Shown here: positions 13,541 to 63,885 of the stretch, one piece after another
Layout of the letters: each line of letters begins with the position of its first letter
Position numbering within the stretch: the first letter of the stretch is position 1
Assembly (NCBI RefSeq): GCF_035084215.1
Contig: NC_090345.1
Coordinates: 34,038,001-34,102,000 of the forward strand
Source of the DNA: Heptranchias perlo
Taxonomy: Eukaryota
Length of the DNA: 64,000 bases
Direction of reading: 5' to 3'
The notes under the pieces: model-generated
What the model was told of the DNA's origin: nothing
What the model saw: the letters and a program-made list of their open reading frames with translations, nothing else
Databases searched by the model: none
Program-made: the position numbers and the translations under genes

Positions 13541-15820
13541 CATAGAATTACATAGAATGTACAGCACAGAAACAGGCCATTTGGCCCAACTGATCCATGC
13601 TGGTGTTTATACTCTGCACGAGCCTCCTCTTTCCCTACTTCATCCAATCCTATCAGCATATATTTCTATTCCTTTCTCCCTCATGTTTATCTAGCTTCCC
13701 CTTAAATTCATCTACGCTAGTCACCTCAACTATTCCTGGTGGTAGTGAGTTCCACATTCTAACCACTCTCTGGGTAAAGAAGTTTCTCTTGAATTCTTAT
13801 TTCATTTATTAGTGACTATATTATATTTATGGCCTTTAGTTCTGGTCTCCTCCATCTGTGGAAACACCTTCTCTACATCTACCCTATCAAACACTTTCAT
13901 AATCTTAAAGACCTCTATCAGGTCACCCATCAGTCGTCTAGAGAAATGAGCCCCGCCCTGTTCAATCTTTCCTGAGAGGTATAACCTCTCAGTTCTGGAA
14001 ATCATCCTAGTAAATCTTTTTTGCACTTTTTCCAGTGCCTCTATATCCTTTTTATAATATGGCGACCAGAACTATTCACAGCACTCCAAGTGTGGTCTCA
14101 TCAAGGTCCTATACTAGTTTAACATAACTTCTCTGCTTTTCAATTCTATACCCCTAGAAATGAACCCCAGTGCTTGGTTTGGTTTTTTTATGGCCTTATT
14201 AAACTGCATCGCTACTTTTAGTGATTTGTGTATCTGTGCCCCCAGATCCCTCTGCTCCTCTACCCCATTTAGACTCTTATATTCCAAGGAGTATGTGGCC
14301 TCCTTATTCTTCCCACCAAAATATACCACCTCACTTATCTATATTGAAATTTATTTGCCAATTACATGCCCATTCTGCAACTTTATTAATGTCTTCCTGC
14401 ATTTGGTCACAGTCCTCCTCAGTATTAATTATACCCCCCAATTTGGTGGTGTCTGCAAATTTTGAAATTGTACTTCCGATTCCAGAGTCCAAATCGTTTA
14501 TGTAAATGGTGAACAACAGTGGTCCCAGCAGCGGTCCTTGTGGAACACCACTTCCCACTTTTTGCAAGTCTGCGTAACTACCTTTAACCCCTACTCTCTG
14601 TTTTGTTTTGTAGCCAGCTTGCTATCCATCCTGCTACTTGTCCTCTGATTCCACATGCTCTGACCTTAGTAATGAGTCTACTATGCAGTACCTTGAAGTT
14701 GAAGGCCTTTTGAAAATCCAAATATATTACATCTACTACATTACCCTTGTCTACTCTTTCTGTTACTTCTTCAAAGAAGTCAATAAGGTTGGTCAAGCAT
14801 GACCTTCCCTTTTGAAATCCATGCTAACTATTCTTAATTATATTTTCGATTTCTAGCTGTTTTTCTATTACATCTTTGAGTAAGAATTCCATTATCTTTC
14901 CTACCCACCAACGTTAAGCCAATTGGTCTATAGTTCCCTGGACTTGTTCTAGCTCCCTTTTTAAATATAGAAATCGCATTAGCAGTCCGCCAGTCCTCTG
15001 GCACTATTCCCCTTTCTAATGAATTTTTATACATATGTAATAATGCCTCTGCTATCTCATCCCTGACTTCTGTTAATATGTGCGGATGCAATCCATCCGG
15101 ACCAAGGGTTTTATCCTCTCTGAGTTTGATTAGTTCATTAATTATCTCCCCCCTTTCTATCTTAAATGTCCTTATATCTGTTTTGATCTCTTCTTCTAAT
15201 GTCACGCCCATCATGTTAGTCTCCCTGGTAAACACTGAGGCAAAGTAATTATTTAATATTTCTGCCATTTCTCTGTAATAACCTTTGTATTTATCGTGTG
15301 TATCCCTTAGTGGTCGTATCCTTATCCTGATTTTTCTTTTGTTATTTATGTGTTTATAGAATACTTCATTATTTCTTTTTATATTCCTTGATAATTTAAT
15401 TTTGTAGTTTCTCTTTGCCTTCCTAATTGTTTTTTTGACTTTTTTTCTAACCTTTTCGTATTTCCTTTTGTCATCCTCTCCTTTATTGTCCATGTACTTA
15501 GTGTATGCCTTTTTCTTTAGGTTCAATTTTGCCCTTATTTCATTATTTGTCCATGGTGTGTCATTACTGGCTGGTTTGTTCTTGCTTTTTAGTAGGATAT
15601 ATTTCTCCTGGACTCTATCAATCAATGTTTTAAATGCTTCCAACAGCTGTTCTATTTCTTTGTTTGTCAGTAAATTTTTCCAGTTTATTTTCCCTAGTTT
15701 CATTCTCATCCCCTTAAAATCAGCTTTTTCCAATTTATGACTTTGGTCTTTGTCTTACTTATGTCCGTCTCAATCTTTATCTTAAATCTTATTATGTTGC
15801 GATCACTATTGCCTGGTACT
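13541..15820 (-). mobile_element. CR1 LINE, 5'-truncated, frameshifted ORF2
   Basis: LGPDGLHPHIL, PGNYRPI, YLDFQKAF, GVPQGPLLGP, KFADT; 3' tail at ~13545-13600. Confidence 0.92.
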
Positions 15821-17429: not shown

Positions 17430-18760
17430 TGGGAACATAGGAATATATGAACAGGAGTAGGTCATTCAGTCCCTCGAGCCTGTTCATAGAATCATAGAAT
17501 AAAATCATTGAATGATTACAGCACGGAAGGAGGTCATTTGGCTCGTCGAGTCCGTGCCGGCTCTCTGCAAGAGCAATCCAGCTAGTCACACAGCACCGCC
17601 CTATCCCCGTAACCCTGGAAATTTTTTCCCTTCAAGTACTTATCCAATTTCCTTTTGAAAGCCATGATTGAATCTGCCTCCATCATCCCCTCAGGCAAAA
17701 GTTTTTTCTCATGTCCTCTTTGGTTCTTTTGTCAATCACCTTAAATCTATGCCCTCTGGTTCTTAACACCTCCGCCAATGGGAAAAGTTTCTACCTACTC
17801 CGTCCAGACCCGTCATGATTTTGAACACCTCTATCAAATCTCCTCCCAACCTTCTCTGCTCTAAGAACAACCCCAGCTTCTCCAGTCTATGCACGTAACT
17901 GAAGTCCCTCATCCCTGGAATCATTCTAGTAAATCTCTTCTGCACCCTCTCTAAGGCCTTCATATCCTTCTTAAAGTGCAGTGCCCAGAACTGGACACAA
18001 TACTCCAGTTGTGGCTGAACCAGCTTTTTATAAAGGTTCATCATAACCTCCTTGCTTTTGTACTCTATACCTCTATTTATAAAGCCCAGGATCCCATATG
18101 CTTTCTTAACCGCTTTCTCAACTTGTCCTGTCACCTTCAACGATTTGTGCACATATACCCCCAGATATCTCTGTTCCTGCACCCCTTTTAGAATTGTACC
18201 CTTTAGTTTATATTGACTCGCCTCATTCTTCCTACCGAAACGTATCACTTCACACTTTTCTGCATTGAATTTCATCTGCCACGTGTCCGCCCATTCCACA
18301 AGCCTATCTATGTCCTCTTGAAGTCTATCACTATCCTCCTCACTGTTCACTACCCTTCCAAGTTTTGTGTCATCTGCAAGTTTTGAAATTGTGCCCTGTA
18401 CACCCAAGTCCAAGTCATTAATATGTATCAAAAAAAGCAATGGTCCTGGTACTGACCCCTGGGGAACACCACTGTATACCTCCCTCCAGTTTGAAAAACA
18501 ACTGTTCATCACTACTCTGTTTCCTATTATTTAGCCAATTTCGTATCCATGTTGCCACTGCCCCCTTTATTCCATGGGCTTCAACTTTGATGACAAGCCT
18601 ATTATGCGGTATTTTATCAAACACCTTTTGGAAATCCATATATACCACATCAACCGTATTGCCCTCATCGACCCTCTCTGTTACCTCATTAAAAAACTAT
18701 TCCGCCATTCAATTAGATCATGGCTGATCTGTACCATAACCCCATTTACCCGCCTTTGCT
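17430..18760 (-). mobile_element. CR1 3' half with nested CR1 tails
   Basis: SGVPQGSVPGPLLFLIHINDL...KLADD...QLEYCVQFW. Confidence 0.9.
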
Positions 18761-20170
18761 CCATATCCCTTGATACCATTACCTAACAAAAATCTATCTA
18801 TCTCAGTCTTGATAGCATCATTTGACCCAGCATCCACAGCCTTCGGTGGGGGGGGGGTGGGGGGGGGTAGGGGGGAGAGTTCCAGATTTCTACTGCCTTC
18901 TGAGTGAAGAAGTGCTTCCTGATTTCACTTCTGAAAGTCTGGCTCTAATTTTATGATTATGCCCCATTGTTCTGGATTTCCTCACCAGAGGAAATAGTTT
19001 CTCTATATTTACCCTATCGAAACCTTTTAACATTTTAAACACCTCGATTAGATCACCCCTCAATCTCCTATACTCAAGGGAATACAAGCCAAGTTTATGC
19101 AACCTGTCATCATAATTTAATCCTTTTAGTCCCAGCATCATTCTGGCGAAACTGTGCTGCATCCCCTCCAAGGCCAATATATCCTTCCTGTAATGCGGAG
19201 CCCAGAACTGAACGCAGTACAAGCCATTATTCTTTTTGTGTCTTTTTGTACCTGTCAGCTAGCTTTTAGTGATTTGTGTACATGAACACACAGATCTCAT
19301 TGCTCCTCCACAGTTTCTAGTTTCTCATCATTTGGAAAATACTTTGATTTCTTTTTCTTGAATCCAAAGTGAATGAGCTCAGACATTAAACTCCATTTGC
19401 CATAGGTATGCCCACTCAATCTATTTATGTTCCTTTGTAACTTCCTGCTCCTATCTGCACTACATACTGTGCTTCCTAATTTAGTGTCATCTGCAAACTT
19501 TGACACACAACTCTCTATTTCTTCATCCAAATCATTGATAAATATGGTGAAAAGCTGAGGCCCCTGATCCCTGGGGAACATCACTTGTCACATCCCGCCA
19601 ATCAGAGTATGTACCCTTTATCAATACTCTCCATTTCCTGCCTCCCTACCAATTTTCAAACCAAGCCACAAGGTTGCCTTCAATTCTGTGCATTTTCACT
19701 TTGGCTAATAATTTCTTGTGCGGAACCTTATCAAATGCCTTCTGGAAATCCATATAGATAACATCCATAGACACTCCCTTATCCACCATGTTAGTGACCT
19801 CCTCAAAAAAATTAACTAAATTAGTCAGACACGACTTACCTTTCACAAATCTGTACTGATTCTCTCTGATCAGCTCAAATTTGTCAGAGTGCTCAGTCAC
19901 TCGCTCCCTAATGACAGATTCTAGTAATTTCCTCATGACTGATGATAGACTGAAAGGTCTGTAGTTATCTGGTTTCTCTCTCCCACCCTTCTTAAATAAT
20001 GGAGAGATATTTGCAATTTTCTATTCCAACAGCACAATTCCCGAATCAAGGGAGCTTTGGAAGATTATTATTAATGCATCTGCAGTTTCCTCACCTATTT
20101 CTTTTAATACCCTGGGGTGGAAACCATCAGGTCCAGGAGATTTATCCATTTTGTAGTTCTTAATATTTTC
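18760..20170 (-). mobile_element. CR1 fragment, head-to-head with 20180-21880
   Basis: DVIYMDFQKAFDKVPH, GPQLFTIFINDL, KFADD, RRLRGDLIEVFK. Confidence 0.9.
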
Positions 20171-20179
20171 TTTGCGTCC

Positions 20180-21880
20180 CTTTGACATTCCAGGAAAACT
20201 AATAATGAATCAAGGACTGGAACTCACTAAAGTTAACGTAAGCAAGAAAACAGTATTAGAACAAATAAAGGCACTAAAGACGGACCCCAGGACCTGATGG
20301 TTTCCACCCTGGGTTTTAAAGGAAGTAGGTGAGGAAATTCCAGATGCTTTAGCCATAATCTTCCAAAGCTTTCTCGATTCAGGAATTGTCCCTTTAGATT
20401 GGAAAATTGCAAATGTAACTCATTATTTAAGAAAGGCGAAAGAAAGAAAGAAAGCAGGAAATTATAGACCTGTTAGTCTAACATCTGTTGTGGGGAAGTT
20501 ATTGGAATCTATAATTAAGGACAGTGTGACTGAGCACTTAGAGAAATTTGAACTGTTTAGAGAGCCAACATGGATTTGTAAAGGATAGGTCATGTCTAAC
20601 GAACCTAATTGAATTTTTTGAGGAAGTAACTGAAGTAGTAGACAGGGGAATATCAATGGATGTAGTTTATATGGACTTCCAGAAGGCATTTGATAAGTTT
20701 CTACATAAGAGACTGTTAGCTAAAATTAAAGCTCATGGAATTGAAGACAAATTATTGACCTGATTAGGAGAATGATTAAAATTACAAAGATACACTGATA
20801 GATTAAGTCAGTGGGCAAAACTGTGGCAGATGGATTTCAACGCAGGTAAGTGTTAGGTCATCCATTTTGGACCAAAAAAGGATAGATTTGAGTATTTTTA
20901 AATGGTGAAAAGCTATGAACAGTGGAGGTCCAAAGAGATTTGGGGGTCCATGTATGCAGATCATTAAAATGTAGCAGTCAGGTAGAAGGCAGAGAGTAGG
21001 GATAATGGGTACGTACTCAAATTGGAAGGAAGTGACTAGTGGCGTTTCACAAGAATCTTTGCTGGGGCTTCAACTATTCACTATTTTTATCAATGACTTA
21101 GATGACATAATATAGAGAGCCATATATCCAAGTTTGCCAATGATACAAAGATTGATGGCACAGTATGTAGTGTAGACGGGAGCATAAAATTACCAAGAGA
21201 CATTGATAGATTAAGTGAGTGGGCAAAACTATGACAGATGGATTTCAGCACAGGTAAGTGTGAGGACATCCATTTTGGACCAAAAAAGGACAGATCCGAG
21301 TATTTTTTAAATGGTGAAAAGCTAGGAACAGTGAGGTCCAAAGAGATTTAGGGGTCGATGTACACAGGTCACTAAAATGTAGTAGTCAGGTACAAAAAAA
21401 ATCAGAAAGGCTAATGGAATGTTAGCCTTTATAACTGGAGGGCTAGAATATAAAGAGGAGGAAGTTTTGGGACAGCTATACAAAGCCCTGGTTAGACCAC
21501 ATCTGGAATACTGTATATAGTTCTGGGCACCACACCTTAGAAAGGATATACTGGCCATGGAAGGAGTGCAGTGCAGATTCACCAGAATGTTACCAGGACT
21601 CCAAGGCTTAGATTATGAGGAGAGATTACATAAATTAGGCTTGTATTCCCTGGAATATAGAGTGTTAAGGGGTGATTTGACCCAACTCTCCTCCAAAAAG
21701 CAGTAGATGGTAGCTGAATTAATAATTTTAAATCTGAGAGCGATAGATTTTTGCTAGCCAAGGTTAATAAGAGATATGGAGCCAAGGCAGGTGGATGGAG
21801 TTAGGATACAGATCAGCCATGATCTCATTGTACGGTGGAACAGGCTCGAGGGGCTGAATGGCCTACTCCTATGTACCTAT
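20180..21880 (+). mobile_element. CR1 fragment with an internal out-of-order duplication
   Basis: QHGFVKDRSCLTNLIEFFEEVT...YMDFQKAFDK; 3' tail gggctgaatggcctactcctatg. Confidence 0.9.
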
Positions 21881-29797: not shown

Positions 29798-32700
29798 GGC
29801 CTTAATATTAACCCACCCTCCTCCCCCTCCCTCTCACTATGATGGGTAGGTGTCGGGTGTTTAAAATGTAAATTTTCACGGCGGCTGTCAGTGGTCCGAC
29901 GATTGTCTCGCTATGGCGAGGCGGGAGGCTCATAAACATATTTAAATCGGGGTCCTATGACACAATAAGGACCCAGAATTGAATTTAAGTACAGGAGCAG
30001 GCGTTTCCTGTGGGTTGGCAAGGTCTCCAGGGTAACAGTGGCAAGATGTTTATTTAGGTGCTTAAATATGAGTTCTCATGTGAAAACCTCTGCACTCACT
30101 GGTGCTTCCTCAATTCATTGTGGGCTACAGTTTTGTTAAAGTACTTGACTTCAGATAATGATTTTGAAACTCTTCAGTGGGCAAAGAAGAAGTCCATTAT
30201 GGGTGCTGCCATTGCTGCAGTGTTCTGGACTGATGAAGAGAAGGAGGAAGAGGAGCACCAGCAGCAAGAGCAAGCTGAGGAGGGAGCTACATAGGGCCCA
30301 TGCTCGCTCAAGGTCATACCCATCCAACAGGGTGAATAGGCAGAGGCTCAGTTTCCTTGACCACTCAGAGCAGCAGTGCTTTAGGAGGCTCCAGGTGACA
30401 TGTCAGGTGGTCGCCAATCTCTGCAGCCTCCTAGAGGAAGACCTTCTGCCAGCTGGACCTGGCAGCCATACCATGCCAGTGGCAGTAAAAGTAACCACTG
30501 CCCTGAATTTCTTTGCTTCCAGCTCCTTCCAGACTGCGAAAGGAGACATCTCGAGGATGTTGCAGTAGGCAATCTATAGGACTGCTGAAGTTAAGGTTCA
30601 GGTGCAACATCCTCCAACTTGTGAGATTCAAAACATCTCTCCACCTTCCACATCCATTAAATTAAAACCTGACTGTGAAGTCTGCATTCAATAATGGGAC
30701 ACAGGGGAAAGGTGTAAGTAACAAATGTTTAATGTAAAGAACAAATAAATTGTGTTAAGACAAAAAAAATGTGACACTCTGTGATCTATATATTTTTTCT
30801 CTTTCTATGCCTACCACTTCTACATAGTGTTGTCCCTGTGGCTTCAGCGGATTTGGTGGAAGGCTGCTGTTCACCTTTCTCAGTGTCCTGAGGTTTTTTT
30901 TATTCGTTCATGGGATGTGGGCATCACGAGCAAGGCCAGCATTTATTGCCCATCCCTAATTGCCCTTGAGAAGGTGGTGATGAGCTGCCTTCTTGAACTG
31001 CTGCAGTCCGTGTGGTGAAGGTTCTCCCACAGTGCTGTTAGGTACAGAGTTCCAGGATTTTGACCCAGTGACGATAAAGGAAAGGCAATATATTTCCAAG
31101 TCTGGATGGTGTGTGACTTGGATGGGGTGATGCTCCCATGTGCCTGCTGCCCTTGTCCTTCTAGGTGGTAGAGGTCGCAGGTTTGGGAAGTGCTGTTGAA
31201 GAAGTCTTGGCAAGTTGCTGCAGTGCATCCTGTAGGTGGTGCACACTGCAGCCACGGTGCGCTGGTGGTGAAGGGAGTGAATGTTTAGGGTGGTGGATGG
31301 GGTTCCAATCAAGAGGGCTGCTTTGTCCTGGATGGTGTTGAGCTTCTTGAGTGTTGTTGGAGCTGTACTCATCCAGACAAGTGGAGAGTATTCCATCACA
31401 CTCCTGACTTGTGCCTTGTAGATGGTGGAAAGGCTTTAGGGAGCCAGGAGGTGAGTCACTCGCTCTTGGCCGATAACCTCTGGGTTTTGGAACCTGTGAG
31501 GGCCCTGCCACTACTGCTCCTCCTATGCTTGTGCAGGGGCAGAGTAGGTCAGCTGGAGTGGAGGCACCGTGTCAGGTATTGGTTGAGGGGGTAGCAACGG
31601 ATAAGACGTGCAGACATCTGGACTTACCTTGCCCGTTCTGCCATCCTCCCTCCCCTGGGGCAGCGGCACATCAGTCCTACCTGCCTGCGGGAGAGCAGAG
31701 TGTAGGAGATTCGCGACGCCTTGGAAGCCTTGAATTAGTCTGTCTACGATCTGGTCAAGCCTGGTAGAGACACTCATGCCCAGTCAGCAGAACCGCTGCC
31801 TGAATCTGCATGCAGGACACAACTGCTGTCAGCATTGACTCATGTGAGCAGCCTGCTACAATTTCCATAGAACTCGCCACATGCTCCATGGCGGATTGCA
31901 GAGTTGAAAAGTCTTGCGGCATCACCCCACATATGCTCGAGTTGGACTCCTCCATCCTCTCTGCTACTGTGGAAAGTGTGCCTGGCAGGCCTGCCAATAT
32001 CTCACACAGTTACAGCCTGCTCCTTTTCAGTGCTGGCCCTAGGGGTTCTGCATCTCTGTCCTGTTCAGCAGAGCTTGGAGAGGACAGTGCCCTCCAGGGC
32101 GTAATCTCATCAGCTGTCCCTTTCACCATTCTCTGCTCTTGCTCACTTGTGCTGTGAGAGTAATCAAGCGCAGTCCCATCTACCTGACTACGAGCCCAAC
32201 CAAGGTGCTGGTATCTGCGCTAGTGCCTGCGACACTTGTGTCATGTGACGGTGCATCCTCAGCAGATATTAGTTCCTCTGAGGAATATTTGTCCTCTCCC
32301 ATTGGGAGCTCTTGAGCTTTACGTGATGGCCCTGGAGGAGAGAAGAAAGGGAAAGTACTAAGTGGTGGCACTTTGAGAATGTTGATCTGCACGTGAAACA
32401 CTTCATCAGAGTTATCAATGTTCTGAGGCCCGCTGAAGGTGAAGTTGATCTGTGGGAGATGTGGGTATGAAAGATTAATGTTGTCTCCCTTCTCTGCGGG
32501 ACTGTCAGCCTCGCCATCGCCAATGATGAGGGAGCTTGATATGCTGCTGAGCTCTAGTGCCTCCTCTTCCGCTGGGGAAATTTTTACAATATCTTGCAGC
32601 CCTCCATCAGTCTTCACCCTCTCCCTGGCATTTTGCGCTCTCTACTCCTGCCAGGGTGGCATGACATACCTATGAGTGGCTCTGAGGAATATGTACATCC

Positions 32701-36783: not shown

Positions 36784-37404
36784 CTACAATCAAAAATATT
36801 AATTCAATTATTTGTTGTGTCAAAATCTATGAATGCTATGAAAAGTCGATTTAAAAAATCTAATCAGAACAGGTCAAAAATTCCAGAAAACACAAAATTT
36901 GGATAATCTTTTCCTGGTGCGATGGTATGAAGTTATTTACAGGCAGAATTTTTAATGGTATTGAATTGATGAAGAGGGTTGATTAAAAAGGGACTGGCAT
37001 GCATTCCTTTAGTATGCAATAGTTCTTCTGTTTAAAACTATCAAAGTATTTACTTTTCAAAAGTAATTTTTTTCAATGACAGCGCAGCCACATCTTTATT
37101 ATGTGGAGTTCTGGGTGCAAAAAGGTGAAAAATAAGCCGATCAGGTAAAAAAAACTGATGATGGAAAAGAGGGTAGTGTGCATTAGGGGATGAAAAAACA
37201 CAATGGATGACCAGAAAAAGGGCAGGCCAAGTAGATGGCCACATAAGCAACCTCACTGCTGCCCCTAAGTCACAAGGCAAGCTCAGGGGACCACAAGAAT
37301 TTAATTAAACAGCATTTCATACATGACAACCTAAAAAACTATCTAAAATTGACCAATAGTTTTTAAAAAATTGACGCTGACAATTAAAAATGATCTGTCA
37401 CATA

Positions 37405-37528
37405 TCCGGTCTGGCCTACATGTGACTCCAGTCTCACACTGTGTGGTTGACTTTTAATGCTCTCGGGACAATTATGGGTGTTCAATAAGCGTTAACTTGC
37501 CAGTGTTGCCCACTTCCCAAGAAGAACA
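37405..37528 (+). mobile_element. diverged LF-SINE-like fragment: core joined directly to the family B 3' tail
   Basis: ccggtctggcctacatgtgactccagtctcacactgtgtggttgactttta (reverse complement of ~45047-45099) followed by caattatgggtgttcaataagc...cttgccagtgttgcccacttccca (family B tail). Confidence 0.7.
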
Positions 37529-37529
37529 A

Positions 37530-40500
37530 CTTGAATTTATATAGCGCCTTTAACATAGTAAAACATTCCAAGGCGCTTCACAGGAGTGTAATCAGACCAC
37601 ATTTGATACCGAGCCACATGAGGAGATATTAGGACAAGTGCTGGGTCAAAGAAGTAGGTTTTAAGGAGCGTCATAAAGGAGGAGAGAGAGGTAGAGAGGC
37701 GGAGAGGTTTAGAGAGGGAATTCCAGAGCTTAGGGCCTAGGCAGCTGAAGGCACGGGCTACCAATAGTGGAGCGATGAAAATCAGAGGAGCACAAGAGGC
37801 TAGAATTGGAGGAGCGCAGAGATCTCGGAGGGTTGTAGGGCTGAAGAAAGTTACAGAGACAGGGAGAGGTGAGGCTATAGAGGGATTTGAAGAACAAATA
37901 ATAAAATGTAATTACATTGGCAGTGCAGTTGGATACAGACTTGTAACTTCCAAATCACACTGTCATACATCTCTGGCATTCCCCCAGTATAGTTCCCATC
38001 TTCATTCCCTCAGTCGGAGGGCTGTAAACTCAAGTGCATCAGGTTCATTCATTGCCTGATTTGGCATGCCCATGTGCCTTTCTCTCTACAGCCAAAACCT
38101 CCGATCATTCCGGGAATCATAAGAACATAAGAAATAGGAGCAGGAGTAGGCCAATCGGCCCCTCGAGCCTGCTCCGCCATTCAATAAGATCATGGCTGAT
38201 CTGATCCTAACCTCAAATCTAAATTAATGTCCAATTTCCTGCCCGCTCCCCGTAACCCCTAATTCCCTTTACTTCTAGGAAACTGTCTATTTCTGTTTTA
38301 AATTTATTTTTATTTAATGATGAATCATCCCGGAGCACAAAGAGAACCAAAGATTCAATTTCTTCATGACTAATCGCCTCCTCAAACCCCTTTCCACCGC
38401 TCCCTCCACACTCACTTCAAATGCTAAATACAAAGAATTCATGGATTCTTCATCTATAAGATTGAGACTATTCATATAGCTGCCTCTGCTTCTTCCTCTC
38501 CTTTCTATTCCAATATCTCCCACCAAACACTCCAGTTTTTTTTAAACCCATTTTAGGCTTGAAATCTGCCACTCTGCAGTTTCTCGCCTTCTCCTCCGCC
38601 ATCATCTTCAAACGCATCTCTTCCATAACTCCCACTTCCTGCTCCTTTCCCCACTCAACACCTGATCACTCCACTACCCATGCTAGCTGATATTGTTAAT
38701 GGCTCCCTTCCCTTAGGCACTATCCTTCTATCTTTCAAAACTGGTATTAGCATCCGCCTCATCAAGAAAAGCACCCTCAAACATCCATCCTCTACAGCTA
38801 TCACTTTATCAAATTCCTCCATTTCCTCTCAAATGCTTCGTTGCATCCCAGCTCCATGCCCTTCTCTCCATAAGCAAACCTCTTAAGTCTGGCTTCTGCC
38901 TTTGTCATTGTACTGAGGGTTCCCTGGCCAAATTCACAAAAAATATTCTCTGTGATTGAAGTTGTGGTGCATTATCTCTCCGGGTACTCCTTGATCTCTT
39001 GTAACATTTGACTATGCCCCGTGACCGTTTCTGTGCTGTCAGATTGCCTCTCTAATGTCTGAGTCAGAATATTCCCTAATTGAGTAATAGGATGACCAAA
39101 TCCATCTTCTTCAATTATCACCATAAACTTGCTCCATAGTACTCTCTGGCCATTCTCTCAGCTTGAATAAGACTGTGTGAAAGTTTGATTTCCTGCTTGA
39201 CCCAGAACTGAACTTCAAACCCCACATCCTTTCCATCACCAAGGCAGATTACTTCTGCCTCCAAAGCATTATCTGCCTCTTCTTTTTAATTAATTCTCAG
39301 GATGTGGGCATCGCTGGCAAGGCCAGCGTTTATTGCCCATCCCTAGTTGCCCTTGAGAAGGTGGTGGTGGGCCTTCTTCTTGAACCATTGCAGTCCATGT
39401 GGTGAAGGTGCTCCCACAATTTTGTTACGTAGGGAGTTCTAGGATTTTGACCTAGCGACAATGAAGGAACACTGATATATGTCCAAGTCAGGATGGTGTC
39501 AGGCGGGTCTGTCCCTACATCAGCCCATCCACTGTTGAAACCCTCATTTACACTTTTGTCACATCCAGACTTGATTTCTCCTATGTCCTTCTTGCTGGTC
39601 TCCCATACTCTATGCTCTATAAACAGCAACTTGTCCAAAATTTAGTCGCCATTATTCCATGTCACTTAAGTCATGCTCACCCATCACCCCTGTCCTTGAT
39701 GACCAACACTGGCTTTCTCCAACACATTTAAAATCCTCATGCTCGTCTTCAATTACCACCATTGCGCACCTCGGTCCTACCTCTGCAGTCTCCTTCAGCC
39801 CCACATCCCCTTCTACACCCTACAGTCTTCTGACTTTGGTCTTTTGCACATCCTTCCTCCTCATTTCAATCCACCATTAATGCCATCTCGGCCTCACTCT
39901 CTGGAACTTCCTCCACAAAGTCCTTAGACTCTCTACTTCTCGCTCCACCTTTAAAATTCTCAACACTGATTTCTTCAACCAAGCTTTTGGTATCCTTCCT
40001 TAATGGCTTTCTTAAGGGCTCAGCCTACATTTCTTTTATATATTTTTATAATTCTCTCCATAAAGCACCTTGGAATGTTCTCTGTTAGGTATATGTACGT
40101 ATACAACAATGGCTTATATTTATATAGAGCCTTTAGTATTATGAAACAGAACAAGTCACTTCATGAAAGTATAAAAAAGCAGCAATGAGCAAGGAAGAGA
40201 TTAGGAGGGGTGACTTCGTATAAGAGGTAAGTTTTGAGAAGTTTCCTAAAGTGGAGAAAATGGTGGAGAAGTTTAGAGAGATAGTTCAGGTGAGTAGTAT
40301 TAAGACAGCTGAAAGTACTGCCAATAATGGTGAGGTGGAGGGAGCGGGCATACACACAAGGCCTGAATCAGAGGAATGAAGCTTTTGGGAGGGCACATAA
40401 TGCAAGAGGTGATTGCAGAGATAGGGTGGGGCAAGGCCATGGACAGATTTATAGACAAGGACGAGGATTTTACATTTAATGTATTGGGAGTCAACATTGG

Positions 40501-41010
40501 TTAACAGCAACAACATGCATTTAGATAGCATGTTTAACATGGAAAAACATCCCAAGGAACTTCACAGAGGCACCAGGAAAATGGTGAACCAAAGAGGAAT
40601 TGGGAAGGGTGACCAAAGAGACGGGTTGTAAGCTGTTTTTTAAAGGAAGAGAGGCAATTGAAAAGATGGAAGAATTCCAGAGTGAGGGATCTATCTGGCT
40701 GAAGGCACAGCAGTCAATGATGGATAAAGGGAGGGGGGTTGCACAAGAGGCTAGAGTCGGAGGAATGTAGAGTTTGGGGGTGGGCTTTGCAGTACTCGAG
40801 ATGGTTACAGCATAGAGAGGGGGGAGGCTGTGGAGGGATTTAAAGTCGAACATACGAATCTTAAATATGAGGCACTGGGTATCAGCAGCCAAGATAGGTC
40901 AGCAAGGATGGACACGATGGGCAAGCAGGACTTGGTGCAGGGTAGGTTATGAGCAGCAGAGTTTTTGATGAACCAAAATTTATAGAAGGTGGAGCATGGC
41001 AAGGAAAGCA
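37530..41010. mobile_element. cluster of L2 LINE fragments in both orientations, with a CR1 tail at 38118-38310
   Basis: Repeated L2 3' ends (ARAFSCLGPKLWNSL; FKILVLVYKS.HGLAPPYL; tail aaaggcgctatataaat). Confidence 0.75.
39282..39498 (-). mobile_element. family B LINE 3' tail fragment inside an L2 remnant
   Basis: gatgtgggcatcgctggcaaggccagcgtttattgcccatccc... matches 42075-42270. Confidence 0.85.
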
Positions 41011-42050: not shown

Positions 42051-45000
42051 TTTTTTTTTAATATTCATTCATGGGATGTGGGCATCGCTGGCAAGGCTGG
42101 CATTTATTGCCCATCCCTAATTGCCCTTCAGAAGGTGGTGGTGAGCCGCCTTCTTGAACCGCTGCAGTCCATGTGGTGAAGGTTCTCCCACACTGCTGTT
42201 AGGAAGGGAGTTCCAGGATTTTGACCCAGCGATGATGAAGAAACGCTGATATATTTCCAAGTCGGGATGGTGTGTGACTTGGAGGGGAACGTGCAGGTGG
42301 TGTTGTTCCCATGTACCTGCTGCTCTTGTCCTTCTAGGTGGTAGAGGTTGCAGGTTTGGGAGGTGCTGTCGAAGAAGCCTTGGCAAGTTGCTGCAGTGCA
42401 TCCTGTGGATGGTACACACTGCAGCCACTGTCCGCCGGTGGTGAAGGGAGTGAATGTTTAGGGTGGTGGATGGGGTGCCAATCAAGGGGGCTGCTTTGTC
42501 CTGGATGGTGTTGAGCTTCTTGAGTGTTGTTGGAGTTGCACTCATCCAGGCAAGTGGAGAGTATTCCATCACACTCCTGACTTGTGCCTTGTAGATGGTG
42601 GAAAGGCTTTGGGGAGTCAGGAGGTGAGTCACTCGCCACAGAATACCCAGCCTCTGACCTGCTCTTGTAGCCACAGTATTTATATGGCTGGTCCAGTTAA
42701 GTTTCTGGTCAATGGTGACCCCCAGGATGTTGATGGTGGGGGATTCGGCGATGGTAATGCCGTTGAATGTCAAGGGGAGGTGGTTAGACTCTCTATTGTT
42801 GGAGATGGTCATTGCCTGGCACTTGTCTGGCTCGAATGTTACTTGCCACTTATCAGCCCAAGCATGGATGTTGTCCAGGTCTTGCTGCATGCGGGTTCGC
42901 ACTGCTTCATTATCTGAGGGGTTGCGAATGGAACTGAACACCGTGCAATCATCAGCGAACATCCCCATTTCTGACCTTATGATGGAGGGAAGGTCATTGA
43001 TGAAGCAGCTGAAGATGGTTGGGCCTAGGACACTGCCTTGAGGAACTCCTGCAGCAATGTCTTGGGGCTGAGATGATTGGCCTCCAACTTCCTTTGTGCT
43101 AGGTATGACTCCAGCCACTGGAGAGTTTTCCCCCTGATTCCCATTGACTTCAATTTTACTAGGGCTCCTTGGTGTCACACTCGGTCAAATGCTGCCTTGA
43201 TGTCAAGGGCAGTCGTTCTCACCTCACCTCTGGAATTCAGCTCATTTGTCCATGTTTGGACCAAGGCTGTAATGACGTCTGGAGCCGAGTGGTCCTGGCG
43301 GAACCCAAACTCAGCATGGGTGAGCAGGTTATTGGTGAGTAAGTGCCGATTGATAGCACTGTCGACGACACCTTCCATCACTTTGCTGATGATTGAGAGT
43401 AGACTGATGGGGCGGTAATTGGCCGGATTGGATTTGTCCTGCTTTTTGTGGACAGGACATACCTGGGCAATTTTCCACATTGTTAGGTAGATGCCAGTGT
43501 TGTAGCTGTACTGGAACAGCTTGGCTAGAGGCGCAGCTAGTTCTGGAGCACAAGTCTTCAGCACTACAGCTGGGATGTTGTCGGGGCCCATAGCCTTTGC
43601 TGTATCCAGTGCACTCAGCCGTTTCTTGATTATCACGTGGAGTGAATCGAATTGGCTGAAGACTGGCTTCTGTGATGGTGGGGATATCAGGAGGTGGCTG
43701 AGATGGATCATCCACTCGGCACTTCTGGCTGAAGATGGTTGCAAACGTTTCAGCCTTGTCTTTTGCACTCACGTGCTGGACTCCGTCATCATTGAGGATG
43801 GGGATGTTTACAGAGTCTCCTCCTCCCGTTAGTTGTTTAATTGTCCACCGCCATTCACAACTGGATGTGGCAGGACTGCAGAGCTTTGATCTGATCCGTT
43901 GGTTGTGGAATCGCTTAGCTCTGTCTATAGCACGTTGCTTCCGCTGTTTAGCATGCATGTAGTCCTGAGTTGTAGCTTCACCAGGTTGGCACCTCATTTT
44001 TAGGTACGCCTGGTGCTGCTGCTGGCATGCTCTTCTACACTCCTCATTGAACCAGGGTTGATCCCCTGGCTTGTTGGTAATGGTAGAGTGAGGAATATGC
44101 CGGGCTATGAGGTTACAGATTGTGCTGGAATACAATTCTGCTGCTGATGGCCCACAGCGCCTCATGGATGCCTAGTTTTGAGCTGCTAGATCTGTTCTAT
44201 CCCATTCAGCACGGTGGTAGTGCCACACAACACGTTGGATGGTGTCCTCAGTGCGAAGACGGGACTTCATCTCCACGAGGACTGTGCGGTGGTCACTCCT
44301 ACCAATACTGTCATGGACAGATGCATTTGCGACAGGTAGATTGGTGAGGACGAGGTCAAGTAAATTTTTCCCTTGTGTTGGTTCGCTCACCACCTGCCGC
44401 AGGCCCAGTCTGGCAGCTATGTCCTTTAGGACTCGGCCAGCTCGATCAGTAGTGGTGCTACCGAGCCACTCTTGATGATGGACATTGACGTCCCCCACCC
44501 AGAGTACATTCTGTGCCCTTGCTACCCTCAGTGCTTCCTCCAAGTGGTGTTCAACATGGAGGAGGAGTGATTCATCAGCCGAGGGAGGGCGGTAGGTGGT
44601 AATCAGCAGGAGGTTTCCTTGCCCATGTTTGACCTGATGCCATGAGATTTCATGGGGTCCAGAGTCAATGTTAAGGACTCCCAGGGCCACTCCCTCCTGA
44701 CTGTATATCACTGTACCGCCACCTCTGGTGGATCTGTCCTGCTGGTGGGACAGGACACACCCAGGGATGGTGATGGAAGAGTCTGGGACGTTGGCTGAAA
44801 GGTATGATTCTGTGAGTATGGCTATGTCAGGCTGTTGCTTGACTAGTCTGTTGGACAGCTCTCCCAATTTTGGCACAAGTCCCTAGATGTTAGTGAGGAG
44901 GACTTTGCAGGGTCGACTGGGCTTGCCTTCGTCATGCCCGGTGCCTAGTGGTCTGATGCGGGTGGTCTGTCCGATTTTATTCTTATTGCGACTTTTTTTA

Positions 45001-45339
45001 GCGAGATTTTACAACTGAGTGGCTTGCTCGGCCATTTCGGAGGGCAATTAAGAATCACCCACATTGCTGTGGGTCTGGATTCACATATAGGCCAGGCCGG
45101 GTAAGGACGGCAGGTTTCCTTCCCTAAAGGACATTAGTGAACCAGATGGGTTTTTACGACAATCCGGTAGTTTCATGGCCACCATTACTGATACTAGTAC
45201 TTTAATTCCAGATTTTATTTAATTAATTGAATTTAAATTCCCCAGCTGCCGTGGCGGGATTTGAACTCATGACTCCGGATTATTAGTCCGGGCCTCTGGA
45301 TTACTAGTCCAGTAACATAACCACTATGCTATCGTACCC
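42051..45339 (-). mobile_element. near full-length non-LTR retrotransposon ('family B', CR1-group-like APE-RT) with tRNA-derived 5' head and LF-SINE-like core; decayed by frameshifts and stops
   Basis: Endonuclease from ~44907 (KVLLTNI*GL, ILTESYL, VGDVNVH, LLDLVLT, SDHRTV); RT motifs (NYRPISLLS, ALDIKAAFDRV, GVPQGSVLGP, FADD); 3' tail with AATAAA and A-run ending at 42051; A box 45321-45331, B box 45257-45268. Confidence 0.9.
45257..45339 (-). promoter_or_regulatory. tRNA-derived type-2 Pol III internal promoter (A box TAGCATAGTGG, B box GAGTTCAAATCC) at the 5' end of the family B element
   Basis: Box consensus matches, plus the tRNA-like anticodon hairpin CTGGACTAGTAATCCAG. Confidence 0.8.
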
Positions 45340-49045: not shown

Positions 49046-50191
49046 TTGGGCTGATAAGTGGCAAGTAACATTTGCGCCAGACAAGTGCCAGGCAATGACC
49101 ATCTCCAACAAGAGAGAGTCTAACCTCCTCTCCTTGACATTCAATGGCATTACCATCACCAATTTCCCCGCCATCAACATCCTGGGGGTCACCATTGACC
49201 AGAAAATAAACTGGACCAGCCATATAAATACTGTGGCTACAAGAGCAGGTCAGAGGCTGGGTATTCTGTGGCAAGTGACTCACCTCCTGACTCCCCAAAG
49301 CCTTTCCACCATCTACAAGGCACAAGTCAGGAGTGTGATGGAATACTCTGCACTTGCCTGGATGAGTGCAGCTCCAACAACACTCAAGAAGCTCGACACC
49401 ATCCAAGATAAAGCAGCCCGCTTGATTGGCACCCCATCCACCACCCTAAACATTCACTCCCTTCACCACCGGCGCACTGTGGCTGCAGTGTGCACCACCC
49501 ACAGGATGCACTGCAGCAACTCGCCAAGGCTTCTTCGACAGCACCTCCCAAACCCGCGACCTCTACCACCTAGAAGGACAAGAGCAGCAGGCGCATGGGA
49601 ACAACACCACCTGCACGTTCCCCTCCAAGTCACACACCGGATTGGATTTGTCCTGCTTTTGTGGACAGGACATACCTGGGCAATTTTCCACACTGTCGGG
49701 TAGATGCCAGTGTTGTAGCTGTACTGGAACAGCTTGGCTAGAGGCGCAGCTAGTTCTGGAGCACAAGTCTTCAGCACTACAGCTGGGATGTTGTCGGGCC
49801 CTATAGCCTTTGCTGTATCCAGTGCACTCAGCCGTTTCTTGATATCACGTGGAGTGAATCGAATTGGCCGAAGACTGGCTTCCGTGATGGTGGGGATATC
49901 GGGAGGAGGCTGAGATGGATCATCCACTCGGCACTTCTGGCTGAAGATGGTTGCAAACGCTTCAGCCTTGTCTTTTGCACTCACGTGCTGGACTCCGCCA
50001 TCATTGAGAATGGGGATGTTTGCAGAGCCTCCTCCTCCCGTTAGTTGTTTAATTGTCCACCACCATTCACGACTGGATGTGGCGGTTCAAGAAGGCAGCT
50101 CACCACCACCTTCTCAAGGGCGATTAGGGATGGGCAATAAATGCTGGCCTTGCCAGCGACGCCCACATCCCATGAATGAATTTCAAAAAAA
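49046..50191 (+). mobile_element. rearranged family B LINE fragment (sense / inverted / sense) inserted in an L2 remnant
   Basis: 49046-49638 is the RT C-terminus (+); 49637-50083 matches ~43423-43872 in the same plus-strand reading, so it is antisense to the element; 50082-50191 is the 3' tail plus A-run. Confidence 0.88.
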
Positions 50192-50579: not shown

Positions 50580-51455
50580 ATCAGGGGATGTAGTTAATAC
50601 AAAGGAAGAATGCATTAAAATGCAAGAAGACATTAATAAACTTGCAGAATGGGCATGTAACTGGCAAATGAATTTGAATATAGATAAGTGTGAGGTGGGA
50701 AGAATAAGGAGGCCACATATTGCTTGAATAATAAGAGTCTAAATGGGGTAGAAAAACAAAAGGATTTTGGGGTACAGATGCATAAATCACTAAAAGCAGC
50801 GGTGCATGGTAATAAGGTCATAAAAAAGGTAAACCAAGCATGGGTTCATTTCTAGAGGGATAGAATTGAAAATCAGAGAAATTATGTTAAACTTGTATAG
50901 AACCTTGGTTAGGCCACACTTGGAGTATTGTGCACAGTTCTGTTCTCCATATTATAAAAAGGATACCGAGGCATTGGAGAAGATGCAAAAAAGATTCACA
51001 AGGATGATATGCTTATCAGGAAAGACTAAACAGGTGGGGGCGCTTTTCTCTAGACAAGAGGAGACTGAGGGGGTAACCTGATAGAGGTCTTTAAGATAAT
51101 GAAAGGATTTGATAGGGTAGATGTAAATAAAATGTTCCCACTTGTGGGGGAGCCCAAAACTAAAGGTCATCAATATAAGGTAGTCATTAATAAATTCAAT
51201 AGGGAATTCAGGAAAAACTTCTTTACCCAAAGAGTGGTAAAAATATGGAACGTGCTACCACAAGTACTTGAGGCAAATAGCATAGATGCATTTAAGGGGA
51301 AGCTAGATAAGCACATGAAGGAGAAAGGAATAGAAGGGTATGCTGATAGGGATAGACGAAGTAGGGAGGGAGGAGGCTCGTGTGGAGCATAAATGCTGAC
51401 GTAGACCAGTTGGGCCGAATGGCCTGTTTCTGTGCTGTAGATTCAATGTAACTCA
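50580..51455 (+). mobile_element. CR1 3' fragment inserted in an L2 remnant (48740-51745)
   Basis: LVRPHLEYCAQF...KGFDRVDVNKMFPL...FFTQRVVKIWN; tail gggccgaatggcctgtttctgtgctgta. Confidence 0.88.
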
Positions 51456-55498: not shown

Positions 55499-57902
55499 CT
55501 AAGAATAAAATTATTCCACAATATATAGTGATTTTCCTGTCTAACAAAACTGAGGATGTCCAAGAACAAAGTATATTTTATGACAACGCTTTTTCATTTA
55601 CACTCTTAAAGCATGTCTCGGGATGCACATAACCTGAGCTAATTACAATTGCTGGAAGCAAACATCTTCCATTTAAAGTAAATAATATTTTCTGTGAAAA
55701 TTTATCTCAGTTACAAAGGCTTTTGCAAACAATGATAAAGAATGAACATTATTTGTGAAGGGCCAAGCTGACAAGAGAATATTCACCTTTTGTTGTAAAT
55801 AAACTACACTGTGAGAAATATATGGGATAGATTTTCCTGGTTTTGTGATGGGCGTATTAGATCACCTGAGCACAGTAAATATAGGAAAATCAGGCAGGGA
55901 GGAATGTATGCCCGTAAGGGAGCCCACCCATTTTTTGCTCCATTTAAGTTTTTAATTCATTTTTGTGCTTACTAAGTTGAAGGATGTAAGAGCTGAAAAG
56001 GAAAACCATTTCAGGCATCCAGAGTCAACATCAAGCACTTCAAGGTTAGATACACCATGGTTAGATGCAGAGTAAAGAAAGCTCCTTTTGCTCTGCTCAG
56101 CAATATATCTGAGCTCCAACCTCAAAAGAGCAGCCTACTGCTTCAGTGTAACAAATTTAATTTCCCAAACCAGTCATCCTTGATGCCTTTTGGAGTAGGA
56201 TTGTCAATTTTGGGCTGAAATTAAAAGGTCAATTATTTCCTGATACATGCCTCACTCCATTTTTGAATACGAGGGTAACTTTATCAATAATCCTCAGGCA
56301 TAGCTCCTTTGTTTAAGGTGTTCCTAAAAATATTAACCAAAGCTTTACAAAGGAAACTTCACAAATTCATTGCTTGTGAGTTAGTCATCTTCTTCATTCT
56401 TGGAATAGACATTACACTCAGCAACTTCTTTTGCAGCAGCATCTGTGTTTGAAATTATTCCTTCCAACGAAATGGATGACTTCACTTGTCCAGATGCTGT
56501 CGCACTTTGAAAGCTGATGCCAAATTACTTGTTGGCAGAGCTCCCTCCATGTTTGATGTATAATAATGTCAAAGATTGGCATGGATGTATCTATGATCCT
56601 GTTGCCTATTTGCATTTTTTATGAATTTGCAAATTAAAAATGCAAATTTGCACCAACTGCCATTGACTTCTTACTTCACTGATTTTATCTCTTTGAATTC
56701 TGCAAACATTAGGCTCGAGGTTTATTCACTGCGCTACTATTAGCCCCGCAGAATTCAAACAGGTAGAACCAGTGGAGCAGGAAGTCGGCAAGAGCTGAGA
56801 TTGTGGGACAAGAATGGATCTACAGTGGAACTGCATCCTAGGGAAGCAGCAGGAAATTCCGCCATTCGATGAGAAGCAGCAGCCTGCTGTCCTTCCCCAA
56901 TATGGATTGCCATCTCAGCCCCATCCTCCATAGCATTATCTGCCTCTGTCCTCGGCCACTCCCGGACCAATTGGTACTCGTTGTCGATTTATCAGCTCTT
57001 AATTTCAAAACACACATAGCAGCTATGCCATCTGCCTCCATCCTTGGCTGCTCCTAGGCTTGCTGGCCACTCATTGGTGGTAAGAAATAGGTTGTTTACA
57101 TTTTAAAGTGCTATTAGCGCTTATAATATATTTGCTAAATAAAAATTACTCAGCAAATATAAATACAGTGAGCTCTGTAAAGCAGCCAATTTCCCACCTC
57201 CTTCTCTTCCTTTAAGACCCTCCTTAAAACCCTCATGGACCACACTTTTCATCACTTCTAATATCTGCTTCTTAGGCTCGGCGTCAATTTTTCTCTGCTT
57301 ACACTTCAGTGAAGCACCTGGGAATGTTTTTCTACATTAAAGGTGCTATATAAATGCAAATTGTTCCTTGGGAATTTTTCCTAATTTTGGGGGAGAAATT
57401 CTGCAGAATTTTCTTTGGGAAACTAAAAGGTTGAAACTGCTCTCTGCAGGATTTATGAATTCCTCTGTGAGTACAGCAGGAGTTAGGGAGTGCGCCCCTG
57501 AACAACTTTTCAACCCAGCCACCCAGATCTGTCAAAAAATCAGTGGAGATGTACAGGAAATCTAGGCCAATGCCTCAGCTTGGAAAGGGAAAACTCAAGA
57601 GTTCTCACTCCTGACCGCACAATAACACTCTGGTATTATGCCCTCCATAGTCAATTGGCCTGCCAACACTCAATATCAAGGCTCACACATGAGGAATGGC
57701 CACTTTGGTGAGGTAGGAACTGTCTTCAAGTATGAATTTATGCTTTTAGAAAAGGAGGGGAGATAATTGGAAATTCCAATTTAGTAATAAGCACATTGGT
57801 TGCAATAACAATATATTACTGGAGCAACACAATATACCAGTACAGGGACTAACATGAAGCATGACTTCCCATAAACCTAGGCACATTTTATATACTTCTT
57901 AC

Positions 57903-62235: not shown

Positions 62236-63150
62236 CTTTTTTTTTATTCATTCATGGGATGTGGGCGCCGCTGGCAAGGCCAGCATTTATTACCCATCCC
62301 TAATTGCCCTTCAGAAGGTGGTGATGAAACGCCTTTTTGAACCGCTGCAGTTCATGTAGTGAAGGTTCTCCCATAATGCTGTTAGGTAGGGAGTTCAAGG
62401 ATTTTGACCCAGCGACGATAAAGGAACGGCGATATATTTCCAAGTTGGGATGGTGTGTGACTTGGAGAGGAACATGCAAGTGGTGTTGTTCCCATGTGCC
62501 TGCTGCCCTTGTCCTTCTAGGTGGTAGAGGTCGCAGGTTTGGGAGGTGCTGTTAAAGAAGCCTTGGCGAGTTGCTGCAGTGCATCCTGTAGATGGTACAC
62601 ACTGCAGCCACAGTGCACCGGTGGTGAAGGAAGTGAATGTTTAGGGTGGTGGATGGGGTGCCAATCAAGCAGGCTGCTTTGTCCTGGATGGTGTCAAGCT
62701 TCTTAAGTGTTGTTGGAGTTGCACTCATCCAGGCAAGTGGAGAGTATTCCATCACACTCCTGACTTGTGCTTTGTAGATGGTGGAAAGGCTTTGGGGAGT
62801 CAGGAGGTGAGTCACTCACTGCATAATACCCAGCCTCTGACCTGCTCTCGTAGCCACAGTATTTATGTGGCTGGTCCAGTTAAGTTTCTGGTCAATGGTG
62901 ACCCCCAAGATGTTGATGGTGGAGGATTTGGCGATGGTAATGCCATTGAATATCAAGGGGAGGTGGTTAGACTCTCTCTTATTGGAGATGGTCATTGCCT
63001 GGCACTTGTCTGGCGCAAATGTTACTTGCCACTTATGAGCCCAAGCCTGGATGTTGTCCAGGTCTTGCTGCATGCGGGCTCGGACTGCTTAATTATCTGA
63101 GGGGTTGCGAATGGAAATGAACACTGTGCAATCATCAGCGAATATCCCCA
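62236..63150 (-). mobile_element. 5'-truncated family B LINE
   Basis: Matches 42051-42968 (MQQDLDNIQAWAHKWQVTFAPDKC); T-run at the left end. Confidence 0.9.
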
Positions 63151-63796
63151 TATCTGCAGGCATTTATCAGGGTGGCTGGATATTACAGTTTTGGCATCAC
63201 CTTGAGGTGGATCATCCATGCCTGCTGCTGGGACACCTTATTGATGGCATGCATATGGCCATGTGTGAGAGGGGACTGCTGGGCAGCAATGAGGTTACTG
63301 AAGCCCTGCTTTATGGTTGTCACAAAAACACTGTCCAACATGGTGAATCCAGGTAATACAAACTGCTGGAGATTGGAGCCCAAAGTCTTTAGAGCCGCAG
63401 TCAGAGCACTTGCGGTGGAATCTAAGCCTGGGGTTGGGACTGTGACCATGAGGACTTCCACTGCAGAGCCCTGCAGGGCTTTGTGACATCCGATTCTTTA
63501 ACTGAAATTTTAAAAAGGATAATTTGAGATAACTTGGGCTATCAATGCTAAAGAAAATCATGAAGAATATACAAAGTGCAGTAGGGAATTGATAAGGGAG
63601 ATTATAAAGGCTAAAAGGGAATATAAAAAAGGTTAGAAGATGAAAAAAAAGGAGTCAGGCTTTTATTAACACATTAAAAGTAAAAGCATAATTCAAGAGA
63701 GTAAAGGGCTGCCCAGGGATAAAGTGAGTTGTGAAGGATTTAGGTTTAGTGAGAAATTAAATCAATATTTTGCTTCTGGTTTTACAAATAACAGTA

Positions 63797-63885
63797 GAAG
63801 TACAGTGGTTATGATATTGGACTAGTAACCCAGATTTCAAATCCCATCATGGCAAGTTGTGAAATTAAATTCAATAAATCTGGTC
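63797..63885 (+). mobile_element. degenerate tRNA-derived head of the same SINE/LINE family
   Basis: agtggttatgatattggactagtaacccag...ttcaaatcccatcatggcaagttgtgaaattaaattcaataaatctgg resembles the reverse complement of 45205-45330. Confidence 0.65.

What the first reader, a model, noticed from the sequence alone, without database searches (positions are those of the whole stretch)
45005..45256. The element's 5'UTR and 3' tail look like LF-SINE: possible autonomous parent of LF-SINE-type SINEs
Seen: the minus strand reads ...ccatctggttcactaatgtcctttagggaaggaaacctgccgtccttacccggcctggcctatatgtgaatccagacccacagcaatgtgg...aaatggccgagcaagccactcagttgt. The 3' tail reads agggatgggcaataaatgccagccttgccagcgatgcccacatcccatgaatgaa. 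From memory both resemble the LF-SINE consensus, the ancient tRNA-derived SINE exapted as conserved enhancers and exons in tetrapods; I could not run an alignment. Inference: such a SINE could simply be this LINE with its ORF deleted, so head, core and tail would all come from one autonomous element.
Basis: partly seen in the sequence, partly recalled or inferred. Interest (0 to 1): 0.8.

Follow-up and report, generated by a model that had tools for sequence, protein, structure and literature searches.

The report
Shark LINE with tRNA-derived head

Summary
The quoted sequences are there. They are the 5' UTR and 3' tail of a decayed, full-length 3,289-nt single-ORF LINE at 45339-42051 (minus strand). 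It is the elasmobranch Zenon (CR1 group): all 7 shark and ray Zenon consensus rows of Stuart et al. 2026 begin with the same tRNA-like head and core, while the 3 hagfish and coelacanth rows do not. Three shark gene models independently link core to endonuclease. So the head belongs to the family and is no one-off chimera. An old headless fragment at 37397-37526 has core fused directly to tail, as an ORF-deleted derivative would. The LF-SINE identity found no support, although the direct Dfam alignment could not be run. The head holds the window's only A+B box pair, and Zenon sense strands have 0 runs of four or more T in 6,006 nt against 29 in 9,704 nt of CR1 (p 0.01-0.11). That suggests, but does not show, polymerase III transcription. 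The LINE is published; I found no mention of its tRNA head.

The parts
45245..45339 (-). tRNA-derived head, 5' end of the element; A box 45331-45321, B box 45266-45258; an anticodon-like hairpin followed by a near-duplicate of it between the boxes
   Evidence: Rfam tRNA 19.8 bits, E 0.17; only A+B pair in the window; hairpins but no cloverleaf, z -0.34; same start in 7 of 7 elasmobranch Zenon consensus rows
45150..45244 (-). AT-rich spacer of the 5' UTR, variable between species
   Evidence: published rows compared by eye
   Evidence: exact 15-nt motif in 6 of 10 Zenon rows, a 7th with one base missing; translated pieces upstream of APE in three shark gene models
44906..45010 (-). linker between core and endonuclease; ORF start codon unresolved
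44172..44905 (-). APE endonuclease domain of the single ORF (in-frame stops at 44885-44883 and 44174-44172)
   Evidence: Pfam Exo_endo_phos_2 E 2.9e-13
42117..44171 (-). rest of the single ORF with reverse transcriptase, broken by frameshifts; no ORF1 upstream
   Evidence: Pfam RVT_1 E 1.8e-09 and 2.9e-16 in two pieces; best full-length relatives are 930-990 aa APE+RT proteins, up to 44% identical
42051..42126 (-). 3' tail (overlaps the last codons of the ORF) and A-run 42059-42051
37397..37526 (+). old short element: core fused directly to tail with no ORF; no head found upstream
   Evidence: core 54/67 and tail 47/61 identical, 1 nt apart, 0 of 300 shuffles reach either score; nhmmer E 3.4e-06 and 3.6e-05
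63799..63879 (+). degraded copy of the head lacking the second hairpin, cut off before the core
   Evidence: 50/61 identical, 0 of 300 shuffles; nhmmer E 2.7e-04
62237..63156 (-). 5'-truncated Zenon copy, 92.7% identical
49046..50191 (+). 5'-truncated, internally inverted Zenon copy, 90-96% identical
30894..31463 (-). 5'-truncated Zenon copy, 89.7% identical
39280..39499 (-). 5'-truncated Zenon copy, 86% identical

Best explanation
SHOWN: 45339-42051 is a dead, full-length copy of the elasmobranch Zenon LINE (one APE+RT ORF, no ORF1, poly-A tail). Its family-wide 5' end is a tRNA-derived module with A and B boxes followed by a conserved core. FROM ESTABLISHED LINE BIOLOGY: the ORF protein copies its own RNA from the 3' tail by target-primed reverse transcription, so most copies are 5'-truncated. 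INFERRED: the tRNA-derived head is the element's internal promoter, acquired in an elasmobranch ancestor and carried into each full-length copy. The most likely reading is that TFIIIC and polymerase III start at the tRNA-like +1 and read the whole 3.3 kb, which would explain the lack of T4 terminators (I put this step at about 0.45). INFERRED: because the promoter sits in front of the core, deleting the ORF gives a ready-made SINE (head-core-tail) that the LINE moves in trans; 37397-37526 is a relic of such an element. The confidence given is for the structure and for the head acting as promoter module, not for the polymerase.
For: 7 of 7 shark and ray Zenon rows start with head+core, 5-10 nt before the A box (by eye); 6 of 7 keep a canonical B box although the sequence between the boxes differs; lengths 2,886-3,314, white shark 3,288 against 3,289 here; in 2 of 7 the endonuclease start is visible inside the 400 characters shown. 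3 of 8 tested gene models have core sequence just upstream of this APE: Rhincodon P0140 and P0127, Heterodontus P0123, z 9-20, 0 of 60 shuffles each; all 3 core hits among 279 proteins fall among the 19 close APE relatives, P 2.7e-4. No ORF1, A tail and grouping with crustacean RTs match the published Zenon description. T4 runs: 0 in 6,006 nt of six Zenon stretches, 29 in 9,704 nt of eight CR1 stretches; first T run 52 nt past the A tail. The head does not fold as a cloverleaf, which fits a DNA-level promoter role better than an RNA-structure role. Core-tail fusion.
Against: No transcript data. T4 absence is marginal: P(0) 0.0095 (base shuffle), 0.0125 (protein kept, third-base codon draw), 0.075 (codon usage kept), 0.07-0.11 (dinucleotide); Phe TTT:TTC 3:15 is not significant, p 0.076; the Zenon copies are related, so not independent, and are poorer in T than CR1. 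Kojima 2024 states that non-LTR retrotransposons use polymerase II and that polymerase III elements are short (passages). Polymerase III RNA is uncapped and the UTR holds several upstream ATGs, so translation needs explaining (established knowledge). An AATAAA lies in the tail at 42108. The stingray row has a degenerate B box. 5 of 8 gene models show no core upstream, and a protein search with the translated core found nothing. The short element is one copy, has no head, and does not show direction. No clear TSD.
Confidence: 0.72

Rival explanations
1. The head is family-wide but the coding RNA is made by polymerase II (from the core, or by read-through). The A/B boxes only recruit TFIIIC or keep the locus open, or serve short polymerase III RNAs and the derived SINEs.
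For: LINEs are described as polymerase II transcripts; the RT must be translated; AATAAA in the tail; T4 statistic not significant under two of four nulls.
Against: Consensus 5' ends sit at the tRNA +1 position in 7 of 7 rows, so the copied RNA includes the whole head; no terminator anywhere in the element.
Confidence: 0.4
2. Direction reversed: an older tRNA-core SINE that used the Zenon tail donated its 5' half to the LINE by template switch or recombination, so the SINE is the parent of the head, not a deletion product.
For: The short element (about 20% diverged) and the lone head (18%) look older than the LINE copies (4-14%); hagfish and coelacanth Zenons lack head and core in their first 400 nt; module exchange and Zenon-tailed SINEs are documented.
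Against: Not excluded. Zenon is known to spawn internally deleted derivatives repeatedly (Persaeus), and the fragment's tail begins within the ORF's last codons. This rival is compatible with the promoter reading.
Confidence: 0.4
3. The tRNA-like head works as RNA: RNase P or a similar activity cuts read-through transcripts at the tRNA +1, like the 5' ribozymes of R2, RTE and Ingi elements.
For: 5' ends at tRNA +1; 5' self-processing is known in other ORF1-less clades.
Against: No acceptor or T stem in the predicted fold, z -0.34; the Rfam match stops before the T arm; box sequences are kept while stems are not.
Confidence: 0.08
4. One reading: core and tail are LF-SINE, and this LINE is the autonomous parent of LF-SINE.
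Against: [quoted passage not shown] LF-SINE is described as specific to lobe-finned fishes with about 10^5 coelacanth copies, yet Zenon coverage is 1.6 Mb in coelacanth and 0.8-94 kb in the tetrapods listed (the method behind that table was not in the sections I read). The coelacanth Zenon row lacks head and core. Naville 2014 found no LINE-SINE 3' similarity among its coelacanth elements. My own recollection of LF-SINE also does not fit (recall, not a test).
Confidence: 0.05
5. One-off chimera or chance adjacency of a SINE and a LINE at this locus.
For: Only one copy in the window has the head; no TSD.
Against: Same junction in five species' consensus rows and three gene models.
Confidence: 0.01

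Closest known systems
Elasmobranch Zenon (CR1 group), Stuart et al. 2026, PMC13343379: CarCar, HypSab, RhiTyp, ScyCan, SquAca_Zenon
   Same: Same 5' sequence, length, single ORF, no ORF1, poly-A tail. This is that family; 0.7-6.8% of shark and ray genomes.
   Different: The paper does not mention the tRNA head: 'tRNA', 'polymerase III' and 'promoter' occur 0 times in the main text and 'tRNA', 'Pol III', 'promoter' 0 times in the held supplement text; no derived SINE is described in the parts read.
Persaeus SIDE and lepidopteran Zenon, Wang et al. 2019, PMC6740152
   Same: Single-ORF Zenon giving internally deleted 5'+3' derivatives.
   Different: Persaeus has no tRNA homology and no polymerase III promoter; here the promoter module is on the LINE itself.
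Bipartite RTE/Vingi-derived SINEs and RTE-1_DAn, Kojima 2018, PMC5786205
   Same: SINE body from a LINE 5' UTR plus LINE tail; one LINE group (RTE-1_DAn and relatives) is noted to carry a tRNA-like sequence.
   Different: In that model the head is added after the deletion, and only RTE and Vingi contributed bodies. Here the LINE is CR1-group and already has the head. The paper gives no position or role for the RTE-1_DAn sequence.
Cassandra, Helenus, Ajax (TRIMp3), Kojima 2024, PMC10886601
   Same: Retroelements with a small-RNA-derived polymerase III promoter.
   Different: Non-autonomous LTR elements under 1.3 kb; no ORF.
LF-SINE / LFSINE_Vert
   Same: tRNA-derived head.
   Different: No sequence link found; lobe-finned distribution against elasmobranch.

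Membership tests
Zenon LINE (CR1 group) | APE + RT in one ORF | tested here: met
   (ORF broken in this copy)
Zenon LINE (CR1 group) | no ORF1 | tested here: met
   only about 430 nt upstream of APE, stops in all three frames
Zenon LINE (CR1 group) | poly-A tail | tested here: met
   A-rich ends in the five copies aligned
Zenon LINE (CR1 group) | sequence identity to published elasmobranch Zenon consensus | tested here: met
   exact 15-nt motif in 6 rows, first 400 nt compared by eye, length 3,288 vs 3,289; no computed alignment
Zenon LINE (CR1 group) | RT falls in the Zenon clade | tested here: inconclusive
   56-row tree: groups with crustacean rows (99/92), apart from turtle and stork CR1, but holds no named Zenon reference and is midpoint-rooted
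LF-SINE | alignment to the Dfam/Repbase LF-SINE consensus | not testable with these tools
   no tool or readable paper supplied the sequence
LF-SINE | match to Rfam uc_338 (reported to overlap the LF-SINE 3' end) | tested here: not met
   presence of the model in release 15 not confirmed by a call
LF-SINE | abundant in coelacanth, relics in tetrapods | tested here: not met
   indirect, from a published coverage table
tRNA-derived SINE (short element 37397-37526) | LINE-derived tail and no ORF | tested here: met
tRNA-derived SINE (short element 37397-37526) | tRNA head on the same copy; many copies with one structure | tested here: inconclusive
   single 5'-truncated copy; a separate lone head at 63799-63879
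Meta, Deu and UCON3 SINE domains | core matches the conserved domain | tested here: not met
   by eye only, against printed alignments; CORE, V and others not compared
Polymerase III transcription unit (type 2) | A and B boxes at proper spacing near the 5' end | tested here: met
   65 nt apart; kept in 6 of 7 published rows
Polymerase III transcription unit (type 2) | no internal T4+ terminator | tested here: met
   0 in 3,289 nt; significance marginal
Polymerase III transcription unit (type 2) | transcription by polymerase III shown | not testable with these tools
   needs experiment

The most novel reading that the evidence does not exclude
Elasmobranch Zenon is an autonomous, protein-coding LINE transcribed end to end by RNA polymerase III from a captured tRNA promoter, with its ORF purged of T4 terminators and translated without a cap. 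It makes up as much as 7% of some shark genomes and yields SINEs simply by losing its ORF.
Probability: 0.4. Interest if true: 0.85.

Novelty: new variant of a known kind. Interest (0 to 1): 0.6.

Why it matters
The usual split is LINEs on polymerase II and SINEs on polymerase III, and SINEs are thought to gain their head after a LINE loses its middle. A very abundant shark LINE that itself carries a tRNA-type promoter blurs that split. It offers a one-step route from LINE to SINE in the CR1 group and raises a testable question: how would an uncapped 3.3-kb RNA make reverse transcriptase? It also affects annotation, since Zenon 5' ends will be called SINEs or tRNA pseudogenes.

Tried and rejected
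LF-SINE sequence: not found in any readable paper or supplement, so no direct alignment. Full-text search for two window motifs: 0 papers. Meta, UCON3 and Deu domains: no match by eye. Supplement of the C. milii SINE paper unavailable. ATG 45035 as ORF start: in frame only in this copy; P0122, P0123 and the stingray consensus row point to a small indel near 44920, so I dropped it. Protein search with the translated core: nothing. Scan of prokaryotic genome contigs for stray shark DNA: 2 of 83 candidates passed, both 17-20-residue chance matches in bacteria, not used. Phage collection: no match. Folding of head, core and tail: none better than shuffles, z -0.34, -0.74, 0.02. TSD search: none convincing. 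One-off chimera and LINE-inserted-into-SINE: rejected (family-wide junction; no SINE tail remnant after the A run). No eukaryotic DNA collection was available, and the metagenome and viral contig collections stayed unchecked.

Full report
Observation. The minus strand carries the quoted core at 45149-45011 and the quoted tail at 42118-42064. Between them lie an APE domain and an RT domain in four stop-to-stop pieces, with no ORF1 upstream. The element starts further up than the stated interval, at 45339, with a tRNA-like head: Rfam tRNA scores 19.8 bits, E 0.17, under the gathering cut-off, ARAGORN finds nothing, but an A box (45331) and B box (45266) form the only such pair on either strand of the window. 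It ends in an A run at 42059-42051, 3,289 nt in all, with no convincing target-site duplication. Four other 5'-truncated copies, 86-96% identical, lie in the window. The host is a shark: the closest named proteins are gene models of Heptranchias, Heterodontus and Rhincodon that have absorbed pieces of this LINE.

What it is. Stuart et al. 2026 (PMC13343379; I read main-text parts 1, 2, 3, 5 and 6 of 8, passages, and supplement rows) describe Zenon elements in elasmobranchs, coelacanth and hagfish, with no ORF1 and a poly-A tail, grouping with crustacean elements. Their Supplementary Table 2 shows only the first 400 characters of each row here. A 15-nt core motif occurs in 6 rows, all elasmobranch Zenons. 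Of the 10 Zenon rows shown, all 7 from sharks and rays begin with this head and core (the seventh has the motif with one base missing), and the 3 from hagfish and coelacanth do not (by eye). Row lengths are 2,886-3,314; white shark is 3,288. In 2 of 7 the endonuclease start is visible within the 400 characters. My RT tree (56 rows: the window plus 55 of 120 hits, chosen by rank, coverage and name) puts the element with crustacean rows (99/92) and away from turtle and stork CR1, but has no named Zenon reference. Zenon covers 0.7-6.8% of the seven elasmobranch genomes listed, and intact ORFs are rare, for example 1 of 1,419 in whale shark.

Independent linkage. Among 279 proteins retrieved, 3 match the region upstream of the APE, and all 3 are among the 19 with a close APE match (P 2.7e-4). 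With a frameshift-aware alignment, 3 of 8 upstream peptides tested score z 9-20 with 0 of 60 shuffles reaching them; the other 5 score as chance. The three are Rhincodon P0140 and P0127 and Heterodontus P0123.

The short relative. At 37397-37526 (+) the core (54 of 67 identical) is followed after 1 nt by the tail (47 of 61), with 0 of 300 shuffles reaching either score (nhmmer agrees). A lone degraded head lies at 63799-63879. Both are about 20% diverged, more than the LINE copies, so they do not show whether the SINE came from the LINE by deletion or gave the LINE its 5' half.

LF-SINE. I could not obtain the LF-SINE sequence, so the direct test is open. Indirect tests all point away. [quoted passage not shown] PMC2315648 (passages) calls LF-SINE specific to lobe-finned fishes with about 10^5 coelacanth copies, whereas Zenon-matching DNA is 1.6 Mb in coelacanth and 0.8-94 kb in the tetrapods listed; how that table was computed was not in the sections I read, and its lungfish value looks like an error. 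The core does not match the Meta, UCON3 or Deu domains by eye. Bejerano 2006 was not seen.

How it works. Target-primed reverse transcription from the tail follows from general LINE biology and from the truncated copies. That the head is the promoter is inferred: the published rows start 5-10 nt before the A box, 6 of 7 keep a canonical B box while the sequence between the boxes varies (by eye), and the head does not fold as a tRNA. For polymerase III to make the coding RNA, the sense strand must lack T4 runs, and it does: 0 in 6,006 nt of six Zenon stretches against 29 in 9,704 nt of eight canonical CR1 stretches, with the first run 52 nt past the tail. By eye the first 400 nt of the 7 headed rows also have none and the 3 headless rows each have some. 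The statistic is marginal, P 0.01 to 0.11 by null model, and the copies are related. Against it: LINEs are described as polymerase II transcripts and polymerase III elements as short (PMC10886601, passages), the RNA would be uncapped, the UTR has upstream ATGs, and the tail holds an AATAAA. The ORF start is unresolved.

Novelty. The LINE family and its sequence are published. I found no description of its tRNA head or derived SINE: searches, and zero counts for tRNA, polymerase III and promoter in the Zenon paper and its held supplement text and for tRNA in the whale shark preprint (passages; its supplements are closed). Subscription papers, Repbase and Dfam notes and the Zenodo deposit were not visible. 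[quoted passage not shown] Other papers seen: PMC4824008 parts 1-3 of 6 and supplement part 1; PMC5499810 parts 1-2 of 6, supplement unavailable; PMC7245038 parts 1-3 of 4 and supplement parts; PMC5753468, PMC4255032 and PMC3649676 passages. Verdict: a new variant of a known kind, real and testable, with the LF-SINE label removed.

Noticed in passing
window 49046-50191: Zenon copy with a sense piece, an inverted internal piece and then the tail, as twin-priming inversion would give.
   Followed up: no
window 45311-45271 (-): The hairpin after the anticodon-like arm is a near-duplicate of it; the lone head at 63799 and the stingray consensus lack it. The anticodon position reads as Thr(AGT) in this copy.
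   Followed up: partly
window 45044-45036 and 42135-42127 (-): The two ends of the deletion implied by the short element lie beside similar 9-nt words (7 of 9 alike); possible microhomology, weak.
   Followed up: no
window 4060-4771, 6139-8876, 13686-15730, 17808-21688, 50584-51323: Decayed canonical CR1 copies, about 30-60% identical in segments to turtle and stork CR1 proteins; used as the T4 control.
   Followed up: partly
window 37514-37692, 40506-40568, 57196-57374: Another repeat abuts the 3' end of the short element; it looks like an L2-type tail in reverse (recall, not tested).
   Followed up: no
window 133-204: Palindrome that scores weakly, below gathering, against several miRNA models.
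   Followed up: no
P0122-P0131, P0140, P0166: Several shark gene models (for example a CWC25 homologue and an immunoglobulin-domain model of Heterodontus) contain Zenon pieces as false or absorbed exons.
   Followed up: no
PMC13343379 Supplementary Tables 3 and 4: The lungfish Zenon value nearly equals its Unknown value, and one SquAca ratio appears as a plain number; both look like spreadsheet errors.
   Followed up: no
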